This document shows positions 22,711 through 54,300 of a DNA stretch of 64,000 bases, one piece after another. The stretch comes from Octopus sinensis (lineage: Eukaryota). The position numbers are program-made. Every line of letters starts with the position of its first letter. Position 1 is the first letter of the stretch. The stretch covers positions 28,520,001-28,584,000 of the forward strand of contig NC_043015.1 in NCBI RefSeq assembly GCF_006345805.1, read 5' to 3'.

Positions 22711-25700
22711 GTTTGCATCTTGCTTAATATTTTCAAATATTTTTTAAAAATGAAAATGTTGGTTTGTAAATATTAAATGAAGCCCCATCACTGGAATTTC
22801 AGTAACAGCAACAAAAATAGAAAAGTATATGGGAATTTCTTCACTGATTCTTGTTCTACTTATAGATAGAACATTCTAGAATAGACGGTATATATTCTCT
22901 TTGCTACCTTGAGAATATATATGTATATGGTACATTGGCTGTTAACTTTCCAAAAGTTTTGTAATGCCGCAATTATTGAAACAATGTAATTAGTTTATCA
23001 AGATCCAAGACATAATTACAAAGGGTGAACACGGGCGCTCAAAAATTTCGAATGTCTAAATTTAAAACAAAGAATATAAAAGCCAGATGCAATCAACACA
23101 TACATAATAATGGAATATTTACTGAGATACTTTATTAATATGAAACATACAAATATTGATTTCACTTTATTCAACCAGAAAATAACGTTTACAGGCAACA
23201 GTAGATATATTGTTAAAATAGTAAACTTGCTAAGAAAGGATACTTTAAAAAGTGTCAAATTTTTCTGTCAATGTATGGCATATACAAATTCATAATATTG
23301 ATTTAGATTAATGTGGTATTATAATATATCATTGAATAGATATGACCTTGGTTCTACACGATTACAACTGTAATGACCTCAGTCATTTTACTAAAAACAA
23401 TTCTAAATAAATTTGCTCAGTTACATTCTCCACATAATACAATGTAGTATTCCATAAGAGGGAAATCTTTGACAGGGCAATATCAGCTTATGTTGAAGGA
23501 TTTGTTACTTTACCAATGAAATGGATCATTTTAGTTCGGTTGTCAACAATTAAAAATGTGAATGGATGATTGACATCAAAATCTATACGATTTATAAAAA
23601 TTTGTGCTGACGCGAAGGTCATGACTATTCCAGTTGCAGCTGCAGCTTCCGTTCCTTCTTCATTAACATCAACAAATGCTTTATGAAACATTTCACTGGC
23701 ATAAATATTCTTCTCAGCACCAGTCATTCCAGATAAATCAGCTTTTAGAGGATCAAAAATATCAGAGAGTCCAAGCTTTTTCAAAACATCACCCAACTGA
23801 AAACTACTCTCTAAACAAAATTTTGGCATATGTAATTTTAGACACATCATTTGAAATCCTTTTCTGTCAACAATGTCTTTGAGAAATTGAGCATTAATCT
23901 CCTTCTCTAAAGCAGCAAGACCATTGATTTCATTGGGAAGAATTACAAACATACTAAATGCTTTCCCTATATAAGGTAACTCAACCACTTTATAGTTGTC
24001 ACTTATTTTTGTATTAAAACCTTCAGATAGATACATAAAATCATGAGATACAGTCTTGTCAGAGCTTAAATAAAACTTTCTAGATGATGTTGCTTTTTTT
24101 CCGAATGTTTCAGCCCACGTTCCTTTGAAGTATACAGCATTAATAAGAACTAGAACCGATTGAGGTGTCAAACTTCCACTTGGTAACAGATCAGTAATTT
24201 TGTTATTTGTGTTATTCTTAACCCAATCATTAATAGTTATTCTTGTCTTCTCAGCATTTGTTATAAAGTCTACATTTTCAATATCTGAAAAGAAATATTT
24301 TACCATGTTGTTCTTGTAGTCTTCTGAAATAGGGAATTTTTCATTGGCACACAAACGATTCACTAAATTGGATGTGACGAGTTTATCTGAGTTTTTCAAA
24401 AGTGAAAAATATTCTTTAAAAGCTAAAGCTACAGAATCTGGATTTGATGTTATCTTCAAAACATTTTCAAACTGTTTGGAAGAGTTTTGTCTTGCTCCCA
24501 AATAAACCATTGATAAAACAGTAGCAACACTGAATGGTGACATGAAGACATTTTCATTGATTCCTGTAGCCACAGCTTGATAAAGACTGTTTGTAAAATA
24601 ATCAATTGAAGCGGCAAGGTTACTGATGTCTTGTTTCTTTGCTGAGTCCATATTGTATACGATAGTATCTGGAGAATATAGAATATGAAGAGAAAATATA
24701 CAGAATAAATTCTTGCAAACATTTCAAAATATTTTATTAGACATTACTGTAATTAGAGACATCTATAAAAGCAAAGTCTGAAATCTCTTCTGAACAAACT
24801 CTAATTTTAACTTTTACATGAACATATTTCTTAACATAACACAGAGTTAATGTGTTTTAAACAGTTTTTAAAACAATTAAAAATTTATATGATTAATTAA
24901 TATAACCATTTTTTTCTCCAATATTTATCTGATATTTGGCACATATCTTAAAAGTTTCATTTATAAGATGATGTTGGAACTTAACCATGTTTGCATTTCA
25001 GAGACAAATTTGAATGGAGCAGGTTTAGTTTTCATTTTTTGCATATATGGTAAGATAAGGTATCAAGTACAATGATATACTCCACCTGCTGAGAGCCTGG
25101 TCAAATACTTGCAACAAAATGACATCCTCAAAAAAGGCCTAAATGTGCCTGGAGGTGATGTTGAACTAATTAGTGTAATACCAAGCTAGACCGGATCCTG
25201 TAAACCTAGACTCAATGGTTAATATTTAGTTTGTAGAATGACCTGTGGGATGACGTCAGCAGCTGGGTGCGTTGACCGGAAGCTGGGGCAACCGGAAGGG
25301 GCTGCTGTCAGGCGTGCGCAGGCAGCAGTCAATTGGGCCTTTCCAACGTGGGTCGTCCAAATGACAAGACGTGTGAGGATGGTGGCGAAGGGTCTGGGTG
25401 AGCAGCTGCTATCTTTAGTGTTCGGGTTGGAGCTGTGTCGAAGGATTAGCTACCACAGAAGGGTCTCCATCACGAGGAAGAGAAGGTAGGTGCCTTTATA
25501 TTCAAATCGTGCACACACCACATGACCGTGTGAAGGAGAGGTGACGAGAATGTCTCCTTTAGTACGCCGCACGGTCGATTACAATAAATAGGAAAAAGGA
25601 TGAATGAGTATGAATGCCAGCAGGAAAAGAGAGACACAACCAGTAGAATGTTTAAGAGAAAGATTTTATTGATAGGTTAACATGTGTGTCTGTGTGTGTG

Positions 25701-51300: not shown

Positions 51301-54300
51301 ATCTAGTATCCTCACCAACCAACCAACCAACCACTGCTAGGACAATCTTCATATGCCTGATATAAATAGCATTTTCAAACACAGCATATCATTGTGAGGT
51401 TTTATCTCTGTATGAATACTGTATTGAATCAATGTAATTTTTTAATGAAGATCTAAGACTAAAATACCAGAGACTATCAAGAGGGCTGAAGAAGTTGAAA
51501 TGTCTACATTTGTAACAAAGCTATTAAAAGCCAGTTGCAATTAACACATACATTAAAATGGAATATTTACTGAGATGCTTTATTAATATAAACAGAAATA
51601 AAAACATACAAGCATTGATTTCATTTTATTTAACCAGTAAATAATGTTTACAGGCAACAATAAGTATATTGTTAAAATAATAAACTTGCAAAGAAAGGAT
51701 ACTTTAAAAAGTGTCATATTTTTCTGTCAATATATGGCAAGTACAAATTGATAATATTGATTTAGATTAATGTGGTATTATAATATATCATTGAATAGAT
51801 ATGACCTTGGTTCTACACAGTTACAATTATAATGTCCTAAGTCATTTTACTAAAAACAATTCTAAATAAATTTGCTCAGTTACATTCTCCACATAATACA
51901 ATGTAGTATTCCAAACTTTGACAGGGCAATATCATCTTATGTTGTAGGATTTGTTACTTTACCAATGAAATGGATCATTTTAGTTCGGTTGTCAACAATT
52001 AAAAATGTGAATGGGTGATTGACATCAAAATCCAAGGGATTTATAACAAGTCTTCCTTTACATGGCACTAAGCGGGCCTTAGTTGCAGCTGCAGCTTCCG
52101 TTCCTTCTTCATTAACTTCAACAAATGCTTTATGAAACATTTCATTGGCATAAATATTCTTCTCACCACCAGTCATTCCAGATAAATCAGCTTTTAGAGG
52201 ATCAAAAATATCAGAGAGTCCAAGCTTTTTCAAAACTTCACCCAACTGAAAACTACTCTCTAAACGAAATTTTGGCATATGTAATACTAGAAGCATCATT
52301 TTAAATCCTTTTCTATCTATAATATCTTTGAGAAATTGAGCATTAATCTCCTTCTCTAAAGCAGCAAGACCATTGATTTCATTGGGAAGAATTACAAACA
52401 TACTAAATGCTTTCCCTATATAAGGTAACTCAACCACTTTATAGTTGTCGCTTATTTTTGTATTAAAATCTTCAAATTTAAACATAAAATCATGAGATAC
52501 AGTCTTGTCAGAGCTTAAATAAAACTTTCTAGATGATGTTGCTTTTTTTCCGAATGTTTCAGCCCACGTTCCTTTGAAGTATACAGCATTGATAAGAACT
52601 ACAACCGATTGAGGTGTCAAACTTCCACTTGGTAACAGATCAGTAATTTTGTTATTTGTGTTATTCTTTACCCAGTCATTAATAGTAATTCTTGTCTTCT
52701 CAGCATTTGTTATGAAGTCTACATTTTCAATATCTGAAAAGAAATATTTTACCATGTTGTTCTTGTAGTCTTCAGAAATAGGGAATTTTTCATTGGCGCA
52801 CAAACGATTCACTAAATTGGATGTGACAAGTTTATCTGAGTTTTTCAAAAGTGAAAAATATTCTTTAAAAGCCAAAGCTACAGAATCTGGATTAGAAGTT
52901 ATCTTCAAAACATTTTCAAACTGTTTGGCAGAGTTTTGTCTTGCTCCCAAATAAACCATTGATAAAACAGTAGCAACACTGAATGGTGACATGAAGACAT
53001 TTTCATTGGTTCCTGTAGCCACAGCTTGATAAAGACTGTTTGTAAAATAATCAATTGAAGCAGCAAGGTTACCGATGTCTTGTTTCTTTGCTGAGTCCAT
53101 ATTGTATTTGGTAGTGTCTGGAGAATATAGAATATGAAGAGAAAACATATGAAATAAATTCTTGCAAACATTTCAAAATATTTTATTAGACATTACTTCT
53201 GATCAAACTCTAATATTAACTTTTACAGGAACATATTTCTTAACATAACACAGAGTTGATGTGTTTTAAACACTTTTAAAAATAATTAAAAATTTATATA
53301 TACCATTTTTTCTCCAATATTTATCTGATATTTGGCACATATCTTAAAAGTTTCATTTATAAGATGATGTTGGAACTTATCCATGTTTGCATTTCAGAGA
53401 CAAATTTGAATGGAGCAGGTTTAGTTTTCATTTTTTGCATATATGGTAAGATAAGGTATCAAGTATAATGATATACTCCACCTGCTGAGAGCCTGGCCAA
53501 ATATTTACAACAAAATGACATCTTCAAAAAAGGCCTCCATGTGCCTGGAGGTGATGTTGAACTAATTAGTGAGTAAAGGGAACTGGTTCTTTTTTACACT
53601 TTTGGGGTGCAACTTGGGTGCAACACAATTTCCTTTCTTTTTTGTTTCTAGAAAATACCAGTCGGTAACAAAACGCAACTTTAAAAATATATACGATTCT
53701 TTATTCTCTTCTTCACAAATGAAGTACGATGGTATACTGGTATCCCCCTAGTTCAACACAGCAAAGCTGAATTCTAACGTTTGTAAGATTCTTACAATTC
53801 AGCAGCAACAGAACAGGTCAAATCCTAAGCGTCTGGGACAGGAGAATAGGCTGATCACACGTTTAAAAATACATCCTTTCTCTTCTATCGCTGTGTCTCA
53901 AGTCAACGACGCTATTAAGGAACACGATAGAATTCCTTTCCCAGTCTCTAGCGCATGTGCATGAGGAAACTTTCTTATGCCTTTCCAGAAGGTTCCAACC
54001 CCGCACACGCATACTGAAGAAGGATGTACCGCACACACACCCTGAAGAAGGATGTACCGCACACGCACACTGAAGAAGGATGTACCGCACACGCACACTG
54101 AAGAATGACGTTGCGTGTGCGCACATTGGAATATGACGTCAGTACAAGTGTACTACCAAGCTAGACCGGATCCTGTAAACATAAACTCAATGGTCAATAT
54201 TTAGTTTGTAGAATGACCGTGTGAAGGAGAGGTGACGAGAATGGCTCCTTTAGTACGCCGCACGGTCAATTACAATAAATAGGAAAAAGGATGAATGAGT

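What the first reader, a model, noticed from the sequence alone, without database searches (positions are those of the whole stretch)
23780..52570. Mosaic scaffolds: variable blocks near the RCL are shuffled between paralogues
Seen: ETFGKKAT is shared by copies 1 and 7 versus EIFSE in 2 and 4. YLSEGF is in 1 and 2 versus EDF in 4 and 7. IVDRK/GDVL/FVDV are in 1 and 4 versus IIDRK/GEVL/FVEV in 2 and 7. KMMLL is in 4 and 7. All three possible pairings occur, which one tree cannot explain. The most variable blocks (after W of YFKGTW, the FMY strand, the strand before MPKF) map by homology to the gate/sheet-C surface flanking the RCL, where exosites lie. Inference: segmental gene conversion recombines RCL and exosite modules.
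Basis: partly seen in the sequence, partly recalled or inferred. Interest (0 to 1): 0.75.

Follow-up and report, generated by a model that had tools for sequence, protein, structure and literature searches.

The report
Octopus serpin array shuffled by conversion
A cluster of octopus protease-inhibitor (serpin) genes has exchanged short stretches between copies, so each gene is a patchwork built around its own target-recognition loop; this is a known way for such families to evolve, seen here in a new animal group.

Summary
The window is Octopus sinensis DNA. It holds seven serpin copies: three intact (c1, c2, c7), one with a 1-bp frameshift (c4) and three relics (c3, c5, c6). Outside the reactive-centre loop (RCL), 16 informative nucleotides split 5/6/5 over the three possible pairings, and each pairing has at least one silent marker. 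No single tree produced this in 0 of 4000 simulations per setting. Permutation tests for recombination are positive, though two weaker tests are not.

Larger exchanges underlie the small blocks:
- c4 is identical to the neighbouring relic c3 over 147 nt, which covers the whole RCL.
- c7 is the outgroup in its flanks and 5' half, but not across about 0.85 kb of its 3' half, except at its own RCL.
- c1, c2 and c4 are near-identical over about 2 kb at the 5' end.

The three most variable blocks lie in the s3A-s4C loop, s3C and s2C. They align with antithrombin exosite residues. Any exosite function is inferred, and dN/dS is not above 1.

Phasing on reads could not be checked. This is a new member of a known kind: gene conversion plus a hypervariable RCL, as in rodent serpin clusters.

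The parts
23488..24651 (-). c1: intact serpin, 387 codons. Predicted P4-P4' is MTFA|SAQI.
   Evidence: tblastn; Pfam PF00079 at 6.8e-108; hinge count; AlphaFold model pLDDT 90.7.
31139..32299 (-). c2: intact serpin, 386 codons. Predicted P4-P4' is AMDL|SGYF.
42698..42930 (-). c3: internally deleted relic. A splice-acceptor region and a few N-terminal codons are joined in frame to the hinge, RCL and C-terminus. The RCL is VSNY|MSRI, and the C-terminus matches database protein P0006.
   Evidence: Translation and blastn; alignment; Pfam on 55 aa at 2.7e-12.
44665..45818 (-). c4: full-length copy with one 1-bp deletion, at alignment column 837 (between window 44983 and 44982). Both parts are otherwise open.
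44680..44826 (-). Tract in c4 that is identical over 147 nt to c3 42713-42859. It covers the hinge, the whole RCL, s1C, s4B and most of s5B. Just 3' of it, c4 switches back to being like c1/c2.
   Evidence: 0 of 147 differences to c3, against 30-34 of 147 to c1/c2/c7. Downstream, c4 against c3 is 82 of 284, while c4 against c2 is 5 of 298.
47343..47726 (-). c5: N-terminal fragment of 128 codons, of the P0006-like type. It is cut off where the c4 unit begins.
48272..49304 (+). c6: inverted, degenerate pseudogene, about 86-87% identical to the other copies. Used as outgroup.
51937..53100 (-). c7: intact serpin, 387 codons. Predicted P4-P4' is LVPC|KGRL.
51739..52590 (-). Part of c7 (CDS column 511 to about 198 nt past the stop) where c7 is no longer the outgroup. 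Its own RCL (52027-52083) stands as an unconverted island within it.
   Evidence: c7-only differences: 21 of 607 upstream; 8 of 782 in the tract without the RCL; 7 of 48 in the RCL; 48 of 318 beyond.
24112..26162 (-). The c1 share of the near-identical 5' part of the unit (about 1.5 kb upstream plus CDS 1-540). The matching parts are c2 31760-33829 and c4 45279-47347.
   Evidence: 11 differences among the three copies in the first 1500 columns; 4-6 differences in CDS 1-540.
24094..24108 (-). Variable block 1 in c1, residues 182-186, in the loop between s3A and s4C. TFGKK (c1, c7) against IFSER/IFSEE (c2, c4).
   Evidence: Aligns with antithrombin 228-232.
24019..24033 (-). Variable block 2 in c1, residues 207-211, at the end of s3C.
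   Evidence: Residues 207 and 209 align with antithrombin Tyr253 and Glu255.
23830..23853 (-). Variable block 3 in c1, residues 267-274, on s2C.
   Evidence: Residue 274 aligns with the antithrombin His at 319.
23581..23634 (-). RCL of c1, residues 340-357. The model has low confidence here, as expected for a free loop.

Best explanation
This is a tandem array of serpin genes in Octopus sinensis. Each copy's coding sequence is a single open frame. The array evolves by duplication followed by non-allelic gene conversion.

Long, near-identical 5' parts keep the copies able to pair. Heteroduplex tracts, from a few tens of bases to under 1 kb, then copy sequence from one paralogue or relic into another.

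This has three results:
1. The 5' half and the upstream region are homogenised (concerted evolution).
2. The 3' half is a patchwork of ancestries.
3. The RCLs remain sharply different. They predict different P1 residues: Ala, Leu, Tyr and Cys/Lys. Several RCL types are older than the species. They are either kept as islands inside converted DNA or moved whole into another scaffold.

Shown: the exchanges, their approximate limits, and the position of the variable blocks on the sheet-C side of the fold.

Inferred: that selection keeps the RCLs apart; that the blocks tune protease recognition as exosites do; and that the direction of the c3/c4 event is from a P0006-type donor into c4.
For: Identity:
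- The best database hits are O. sinensis proteins at 97% and 92% identity.
- Pfam Serpin matches at about 1e-108.
- The model has pLDDT 90.7 and TM 0.92 to antithrombin.
- The hinge reads GTEAAAA in every copy that retains it: c1, c2, c3, c4 and c7.

Conflict between sites:
- The split is 5/6/5 informative sites.
- Silent markers support every split: 273 and 651; 777 and 783; and the stop codon TAA/TGA at 1163.
- With c6 as outgroup, derived states join c1 with c4, with c7 and with c2, and also join c2 with c7.
- Ten or more conflicting sites arose in 0 of 4000 simulations in each of six settings.

Recombination tests:
- PHI-like test: 33 of 20000 (window 50) and 239 of 20000 (window 100).
- Max-chi-square: c2-c4 4 of 5000, c2-c7 10 of 5000, c1-c7 132 of 5000.
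- Triplet test with flanks: 0 of 5000 for five of 24 ordered triplets. CDS only: 0, 2 and 4 of 5000 for three of 24.

Tracts:
- c3 and c4 are identical over 147 nt.
- c7-only differences run at 3.5%, then 1.0%, then 15.1% along the unit. Third-codon positions give 10 of 170 against 1 of 198, p = 0.0035.
- dS of c7 against the other copies is 0.10-0.12 in the N-half, but 0.044 to c1 and to c2 in the C-half.
- The best trees differ between halves. The clade c1c2c4 has support 91/92 in CDS 1-540. The clade c1c2c7 has 89/87 in CDS 541-880.

Old RCLs:
- VSNY|MSRI matches O. bimaculoides VTNY|MLRI.
- c7's LVPC resembles LVLC in O. bimaculoides.
- c1's ..A|SAQI resembles MMAL|SAQI (O. bimaculoides) and MMAM|SAQM (Argonauta).
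- By contrast, the N-half motif of the six recent O. sinensis copies is species-specific.

Other copies from the same assembly:
- P0001 has c1's RCL but c4's blocks 1 and 2.
- P0002 is nearly identical to c7.
Against: Tests that were weak or negative:
- Longest-identical-run (GENECONV-like) tests were weak. Over the six pairs they gave 498, 2638, 1103, 736, 723 and 117 of 5000.
- After merging adjacent sites into events, only 10 events remain and they show no clear clustering. Six or more conflicting sites then arise in up to 252 of 4000 simulations under extreme rate heterogeneity.
- The AU tests did not reject the rival clade in the 3' half (p = 0.158). In the 5' half they gave 0.064 and 0.035.

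Limits of the data:
- Everything comes from one assembly. It has a 100-N gap (12717-12816) exactly where the higher-order repeat predicts another copy. Phasing is therefore unverified.
- No DNA of the copies outside the window could be obtained, so donors are inferred from proteins.

On the functional reading:
- dN/dS in the variable half is 0.4-1.2, so positive selection is not demonstrated.
- The clearest RCL transfer involves a frameshifted recipient and a relic.
Confidence: 0.75

Rival explanations
1. The mosaics are assembly or polishing artefacts. Reads from near-identical tandem copies were mixed, so the consensus of each copy is a chimera.
For: - The copies share 1.5-2 kb of near-identical DNA.
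- The array contains an assembly gap.
- The smallest shared blocks are short: c1 and c7 are identical only over columns 511-619, and c2 and c4 over 441-555. That is within one short read.
- The single-base deletion in c4 could be a consensus error.
Against: - The c3/c4 tract differs from the other copies at 30-34 of 147 positions. Mis-mapped reads could not have polished it in.
- The c7 tract is about 0.85 kb and has sharp changes in divergence on both sides.
- All four combinations at residues 261 and 288 occur once paralogues from the separate O. vulgaris assembly are included: V-D (c1), I-E (c2), I-D (P0006), V-E (O. vulgaris P0007).
Confidence: 0.1
2. There was no exchange. The shared blocks arose by parallel amino-acid changes, driven by selection at a few specificity-determining positions.
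For: - The blocks sit at positions homologous to known exosites.
- dN/dS is several-fold higher there than in the N-half.
Against: - Silent sites travel with the amino-acid changes (273, 651, 777, 783, and the stop codon at 1163).
- Block 1 is shared as four identical nucleotide changes within 9 nt.
- Non-coding flanks show the same switches.
- Simulations with strong rate heterogeneity never reach the observed conflict.
Confidence: 0.03
3. The patchwork comes from crossing-over, not conversion. Unequal crossovers could have made chimeric genes at each duplication. Alternatively, ordinary allelic recombination acted on copies that are really haplotypes placed in tandem by the assembler.
For: - The array has a higher-order repeat: 12844-23020 matches 54186-64000 at about 97%.
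- c1/P0001 and c7/P0002 could be such pairs.
- c5 ends exactly where the c4 unit starts, which is a duplication junction.
Against: - Several switches fall within about 600 bp.
- There are internal tracts bounded on both sides by another ancestry: the c7 tract, and the 3' limit of the c4 tract inside the CDS with c2-like DNA beyond it. These need conversion or double crossovers.
- The copies carry very different RCLs and different spacer content, unlike haplotypes.
Confidence: 0.12

Closest known systems
Rodent clade-A serpin clusters (Spi-1/Serpina1, Spi-2/Serpina3) with a hypervariable reactive centre
   Same: Tandem paralogues with conserved scaffolds and very divergent RCLs. Gene conversion followed by selection has been proposed as the cause. 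Source: passages of Ohta's 2010 review, PMC3966226, which cite Hill & Hastie 1987 and Ohta 1994. I did not see the primary papers.
   Different: - This is a cephalopod.
- Each coding sequence is a single open frame.
- An actual donor-like relic lies 2 kb from the converted copy.
- The variable blocks outside the RCL sit on sheet C.
Woodrat SERPINA3-like tandem duplicates
   Same: A tandem serpin expansion with functional variation. GARD found two breakpoints (nucleotides 332 and 953) in the SERPINA3-like genes (passages of PMC12646145).
   Different: That paper treats recombination only as a nuisance for selection tests. The words 'conversion', 'concerted' and 'chimer' do not occur in its text.
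Insect serpin-1 type genes with mutually exclusive RCL exons
   Same: One conserved scaffold is combined with many alternative RCL modules (passage of PMC3966226 citing Jiang et al. 1994).
   Different: There the combination is made by splicing within one gene. Here whole genes are duplicated and the modules are moved in the germline DNA.
Ixodes scapularis intronless serpin arrays
   Same: Dense tandem clusters of mostly intronless serpin genes, including exact duplicates and recent paralogues (abstract and passages of PMC13116602).
   Different: 'Conversion', 'recombination', 'mosaic' and 'chimer' do not occur in that text.
Antithrombin and alpha-1-antitrypsin exosites on sheet C
   Same: The variable blocks align with antithrombin Glu232/Asn233, Tyr253/Glu255 and the s2C histidine. 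Sources: reference title in PMC12001179 and passages of PMC10216295. Block 1 lies in the segment before s4C, where an antitrypsin-elastase exosite was reported (abstract of PMC12001179).
   Different: No binding data exist for the octopus proteins. The residues differ, and there is no heparin-type cofactor logic. The resemblance is positional only.

Membership tests
Serpin superfamily (inhibitory type) | Sequence match to the serpin profile over the full length | tested here: met
   PF00079 matches positions 4-370 of 370 at about 1e-108 for c1, c2 and c7.
Serpin superfamily (inhibitory type) | Native serpin fold, with the helices and strands in the canonical order and an exposed loop | tested here: met
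   The AlphaFold2 model of c1 has pLDDT 90.7 and pTM 0.90. Only residues 336-352 have low confidence. Foldseek gives TM 0.92 to antithrombin 1oyh and 0.88 to SERPINB3 2zv6. The element names come from the textbook serpin topology, which I recalled.
Serpin superfamily (inhibitory type) | Hinge with small residues at P15-P9, which allows loop insertion | tested here: met
   The hinge reads GTEAAAA(T/S) in c1, c2, c3, c4 and c7. The consensus rule is recalled.
Serpin superfamily (inhibitory type) | Forms a covalent complex with, and inhibits, a protease | not testable with these tools
   Needs a biochemical assay.
Intracellular clade-B-like serpins ('leukocyte elastase inhibitor-like', NCBI's name) | No signal peptide | tested here: inconclusive
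   The open frames start at a Met with no signal peptide. But each copy keeps a splice acceptor and in-frame codons upstream of that Met. These match the mature N-terminus of 413-aa relatives that do carry a signal peptide. The signal exon was not found in the window.
Paralogues evolving by non-allelic gene conversion | Site patterns that no single tree explains, clustered along the sequence | tested here: met
Paralogues evolving by non-allelic gene conversion | Tracts of identity or low divergence bounded by divergent DNA | tested here: met
   The c3/c4 tract of 147 nt and the c7 tract.
Paralogues evolving by non-allelic gene conversion | Significant results in all standard tests | tested here: inconclusive
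   The PHI-like, max-chi-square and triplet tests are positive. The run-length test is weak and the AU tests are mostly non-significant. All were my own implementations, not RDP, GENECONV or GARD.
Paralogues evolving by non-allelic gene conversion | The mosaic is confirmed on single molecules | not testable with these tools
   No reads, and no second assembly of this species, were available.
Serpin exosite | Position homologous to a proven exosite | tested here: met
   In the alignment to antithrombin 1t1f, our residues 186, 187, 207, 209 and 274 align with AT 232, 233, 253, 255 and 319. The numbering is checked by the V317C variant residue.
Serpin exosite | Surface exposure and closeness to the RCL in three dimensions | not tested
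Only the secondary structure was used.
Serpin exosite | Signature of diversifying selection (dN/dS above 1) | tested here: not met
   dN/dS for the C-half scaffold is 0.41-1.18. That is higher than the 0.08-0.15 for c7 pairs in the N-half, but not above 1.
Serpin exosite | Changes the rate or specificity of inhibition | not testable with these tools
   Needs kinetic measurements.

The most novel reading that the evidence does not exclude
The relics are not just debris. Truncated copies such as c3 keep an in-frame hinge, RCL and C-terminus behind a splice acceptor. They could serve as a standing library of RCL cassettes, copied by germline gene conversion into full-length scaffolds. Together with the sheet-C blocks, this would give the octopus a combinatorial way to make new inhibitor specificities. 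It would be loosely comparable to pseudogene-templated diversification of bird antibody genes, but heritable.
Probability: 0.12. Interest if true: 0.7.

Novelty: new member of a known kind. Interest (0 to 1): 0.4.

Why it matters
- It gives a clean, small example, with an apparent donor and recipient side by side, of how a protease-inhibitor family keeps a common scaffold while holding or moving very different recognition loops. I found no such description for this animal group in the library I could search.
- The natural chimeras are ready-made material for asking how much sheet-C residues contribute to specificity beyond the RCL. One example is c1 against P0001: same RCL type, different blocks 1 and 2.
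- It is also a warning. Trees, orthology calls and selection tests on these genes will mislead unless recombination is handled, and the array needs read-level validation.

Tried and rejected
I could not see whether the exact proteins occur in other sources, nor list the 13 members of P0006's cluster.
- **Run-length (GENECONV-like) test:** weak.
- **AU topology tests:** mostly non-significant.
- **Signal-peptide exon:** searched in the window with the first 40 residues of P0006, P0008 and P0005. Only the part from the acceptor onward matched.
- **One signal exon shared by several serpin bodies:** P0015, another 'isoform', has a different N-terminus, so this has no support.
- **Pfam on five repeat ORFs:** 0 of 5 matched. 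My recalled guess that they are transposase remnants is unsupported.
- **tRNA scan of the window:** 0 genes.
- **Papers:** the O. sinensis genome paper was not among the 8 listed of 5,687 hits. Inglis & Hill 1991 is not held. The bovine SERPINA3 paper does not mention conversion.
- **Model coordinates** were not readable by scripts, so no distances to the RCL were measured.
- **Collections:** No DNA of the copies outside the window was sought.

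
Full report
**What is in the window**

The DNA is from Octopus sinensis, not from a human.
- The best hits to copy 1 are O. sinensis proteins at 97% and 92% identity. They lie on a contig of 53,884,001 bases, the same contig that carries the window's own proteins. The next hits are from O. bimaculoides, O. vulgaris and Argonauta.
- A tblastn search with copy 1 found 12 pieces at seven places.
  - Intact: c1 (23488-24651), c2 (31139-32299) and c7 (51937-53100).
  - Frameshifted: c4 (44665-45818). 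It has one 1-bp deletion at alignment column 837 and is otherwise open.
  - Relics: c3, c5 and c6.
- All copies are on the minus strand except c6.
- The three intact copies match Pfam Serpin over the whole profile at about 1e-108.
- An AlphaFold2 model of c1 has pLDDT 90.7. It was built on an alignment of 65 rows: 3 window copies and 62 of the 120 listed hits, picked by hand.
- Only the loop at residues 336-352 is uncertain.
- The model's nearest solved folds are antithrombin (TM 0.92) and SERPINB3.
- Each coding sequence is one open frame.

Outside the RCL (columns 1018-1074), 76 of 1106 columns vary and 16 are informative.
- 12|47 has five sites: 273, 622, 632, 651, 808.
- 14|27 has six sites: 172, 777, 781, 783, 864, 984.
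- 17|24 has five sites: 545, 550, 551, 553, 1163.

Each split includes silent markers, so this is shared ancestry and not parallel amino-acid change:
- the third positions at 273 and 651;
- the third positions at 777 and 783;
- the stop codon, which is TAA in c1 and c7 and TGA in c2 and c4.

With the old pseudogene c6 as outgroup, derived states join c1 with c4, with c7 and with c2, and also join c2 with c7. No rooted tree allows that.

**Is it more than chance?**

Simulations on one tree used deliberately lengthened terminal branches and gamma shapes down to 0.1.
- Ten or more conflicting sites arose in 0 of 4000 replicates in each of six settings.
- The mean was 0.9-2.8 conflicting sites.

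Positive permutation tests:
- The PHI-like statistic was reached in 33 of 20000 (window 50), 239 of 20000 (window 100) and 545 of 20000 (window 200).
- Max-chi-square gave c2-c4 4 of 5000, c2-c7 10 of 5000, c1-c7 132, c1-c4 238, c1-c2 330 and c4-c7 539.
- A 3SEQ-like triplet test covered 24 ordered triplets per data set. With flanks it gave 0 of 5000 for five triplets. On the CDS alone it gave 0, 2 and 4 of 5000 for three triplets.

Results against this reading:
- The longest-identical-run test was weak. Its best result was 117 of 5000.
- When neighbouring sites with the same split are merged, only 10 events remain, with no clear clustering.
- Six or more conflicting sites then occur in up to 252 of 4000 simulations at the most extreme setting.
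- AU tests did not reject the rival clade in CDS 541-880 (p = 0.158).

**The bigger structure behind the small blocks**

*1. The 5' part is homogenised.* Among c1, c2 and c4, the 1.5 kb upstream of the start holds 11 differences in 1500 columns. CDS 1-540 holds 4-6 per pair. The 3' half of the CDS and the 3' flank are far more different.

*2. c7 changes its relationship along the unit.* c7 is the clear outgroup in these regions:
- the 5' flank (8 of 97);
- CDS 1-540 (16 of 540);
- the 3' flank beyond about +198 (53 of 377).

From about column 511 to +198 it is no more distant than the others are from each other. c7-only differences run 21 of 607, then 8 of 782, then 48 of 318 (Fisher p = 0.002 and 1e-19). 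Third-codon positions give 10 of 170 against 1 of 198 (p = 0.0035). The dS values agree:
- c7 against the others is 0.10-0.12 in the N-half.
- c7 to c1 and to c2 is 0.044 in the C-half.
- c4 becomes the outlier there, at 0.09-0.13.

The best trees change accordingly. The clade c1c2c4 has support 91/92 in the first half, and c1c2c7 has 89/87 in the second. Inside this homogenised stretch, c7's RCL remains an island.

*3. A whole RCL has moved.* c3, about 2 kb downstream of c4, is an internally deleted relic.
- A splice-acceptor region and a few codons run in frame straight into the hinge, RCL and C-terminus.
- c4 is identical to c3 over 147 nt (c4 44680-44826; c3 42713-42859), from the hinge through the RCL to within 15 nt of the stop.
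- Over the same stretch c4 differs from c1, c2 and c7 at 31, 30 and 34 positions.
- Immediately after the tract, c4 switches back to being like c1/c2 (5 of 298 differences to c2) and unlike c3 (82 of 284; part of that alignment is poor).
- The tract and c3's last codons match the protein P0006, a more divergent O. sinensis paralogue.

A P0006-type donor and c4 as recipient is therefore the simplest reading. The 5' limit cannot be set, because c3 is deleted there.

**RCLs are old; scaffolds are young or homogenised**

Counting from the hinge, the predicted P4-P4' sites are:
- MTFA|SAQI (c1);
- AMDL|SGYF (c2);
- VSNY|MSRI (c4, c3 and P0006);
- LVPC|KGRL (c7).

Related loops occur in other species:
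- VTNY|MLRI, LVLC|SAKI and MMAL|SAQI in O. bimaculoides;
- CLMC|DDYF, with the same loop length as c2, in O. vulgaris;
- MMAM|SAQM in Argonauta.

By contrast, the N-half of the six recent O. sinensis copies shares a species-specific motif that those relatives lack. In the RCL, dS and dN are both very high (0.4-1.1 and 0.56-2.4), although the alignment there is unreliable. This fits old loop modules held in, or moved between, homogenised scaffolds. It does not fit rapid point mutation since duplication.

Two further proteins come from the same assembly but from outside the window, and they extend the mosaic.
- P0001 has c1's RCL type and s2C block, but c4's blocks 1 and 2.
- P0002 differs from c7 at two residues.

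**Where the variable blocks lie**

Among c1, c2, c4 and c7, 57 residues vary. Of the 39 outside the RCL, 8 lie in residues 1-175, 26 in residues 176-339 and 5 in residues 358-387. By the model's order of elements, the three dense blocks fall as follows. The element names come from the canonical serpin topology, which I recalled.
- Residues 182-186 lie in the loop between s3A and s4C.
- Residues 207-211 lie at the end of s3C.
- Residues 267-274 lie on s2C.

In the ungapped HMMER alignment to antithrombin 1t1f, our residues 186, 187, 207, 209 and 274 align with AT 232, 233, 253, 255 and 319. The engineered V317C residue confirms the numbering. What the papers say about those positions:
- A reference title (Izaguirre & Olson 2006) in PMC12001179 names Tyr253 and Glu255 in strand 3 of sheet C as key exosite determinants.
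- Passages of PMC10216295 name Tyr253, a histidine, Asn233, Arg235 and Glu237 as exosite residues, and Glu232 and Glu255 as contacts. The histidine is printed there as His359 and as His317; I recall it as His319.
- The abstract of PMC12001179 reports an antitrypsin-elastase exosite in the acidic segment just before s4C.

Block 1 also reverses charge, with KK against EE/ER.

Function is not shown:
- dN/dS in this half is 0.41-1.18. That is several-fold above the 0.08-0.15 of the c7 pairs in the N-half (Fisher p = 0.001-0.003 on Sd/Nd counts), but not above 1.
- Several s2C changes are between hydrophobic residues and may be buried.

**Comparison with what is known**

- Passages of Ohta's 2010 review state that gene conversion followed by selection accounts for reactive-centre hypervariability in protease inhibitors. 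They cite Hill & Hastie 1987 and Ohta 1994. They also point to the insect serpin with alternative RCL exons (PMC3966226).
- GARD breakpoints were reported in woodrat SERPINA3-like genes (PMC12646145).
- Intronless tandem serpin arrays are described in ticks, with no mention of conversion (PMC13116602).
- Three searches combined serpin with gene conversion or concerted evolution. Two combined serpin with octopus or cephalopod. None listed a paper on exchange between cephalopod serpin paralogues.
- That library lacks most subscription journals, so this is no proof that none exists.

**Verdict**

- The finding is real and the mechanism is well supported within one assembly.
- The exosite reading is a reasonable but untested inference.
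- It is a new member of a known kind.
- The main open risk is assembly phasing. The array contains a 100-N gap exactly where the higher-order repeat (12844-23020 matching 54186-64000) predicts another copy.

Noticed in passing
window 24652-24690 (c1); likewise upstream of c2, c4, c5, c7 and c3 (for example 53101-53140): Each copy keeps a pyrimidine tract and an AG acceptor about 17 nt before its ATG. The in-frame codons after the acceptor match the mature N-terminus of 413-aa relatives that carry a signal peptide. The copies may therefore be made in both a secreted and an intracellular form. The signal-peptide exon is not in the window.
   Followed up: partly
window 12717-12816: There is a 100-N assembly gap. 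The DNA just right of it (12817 onward) matches the 5' side of the serpin units at 99%. A further serpin copy is therefore expected where the gap and unrelated DNA now lie. The gap was left as it is.
   Followed up: partly
window 12844-23020 and 54186-64000: A higher-order repeat with a period of about 41 kb and about 97% identity. By position, a c1-like gene should lie just beyond the right end of the window. The database protein P0001, which has a c1-type RCL, may be that gene.
   Followed up: no
window 47343-48007 and 48198-48696: c5 and c6 form a head-to-head inverted pair, about 85% identical. c5 ends exactly at the junction with the c4 duplication unit (47344/47347).
   Followed up: partly
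window 13959-14399, 26620-27060, 34287-34727; also 54882-55286 and 55864-56562: Repeated open frames of 134-232 codons lie on the 5' side of the serpin units. The five that were scanned (including 13959-14399 as one of the three identical 146-codon copies) have no Pfam match. Their nature is unknown.
   Followed up: partly
window 3196-3600, 7133-7536, 10063-10483, 10930-11322, 18430-18865, 40750-41176, 59390-59837: An interspersed repeat of about 400 bp, present in at least seven copies on both strands at 83-94% identity. No tRNA-like part was found by ARAGORN.
   Followed up: partly
window 16800-17250 and 57900-58250; 5700-6350; 1-600: Long simple repeats: purine-rich GAA/GAG-type runs inside the higher-order repeat, a CA/TG run, and a TA/CA-rich run at the left end.
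   Followed up: no
c2, window 31479-31498 (alignment columns 802-821): c2's unique s2C block (EGLF..R) rests on a cluster of c2-only nucleotide changes. It resembles the Argonauta protein at the same place (ESLY). This hints at an import from a donor outside the window.
   Followed up: no
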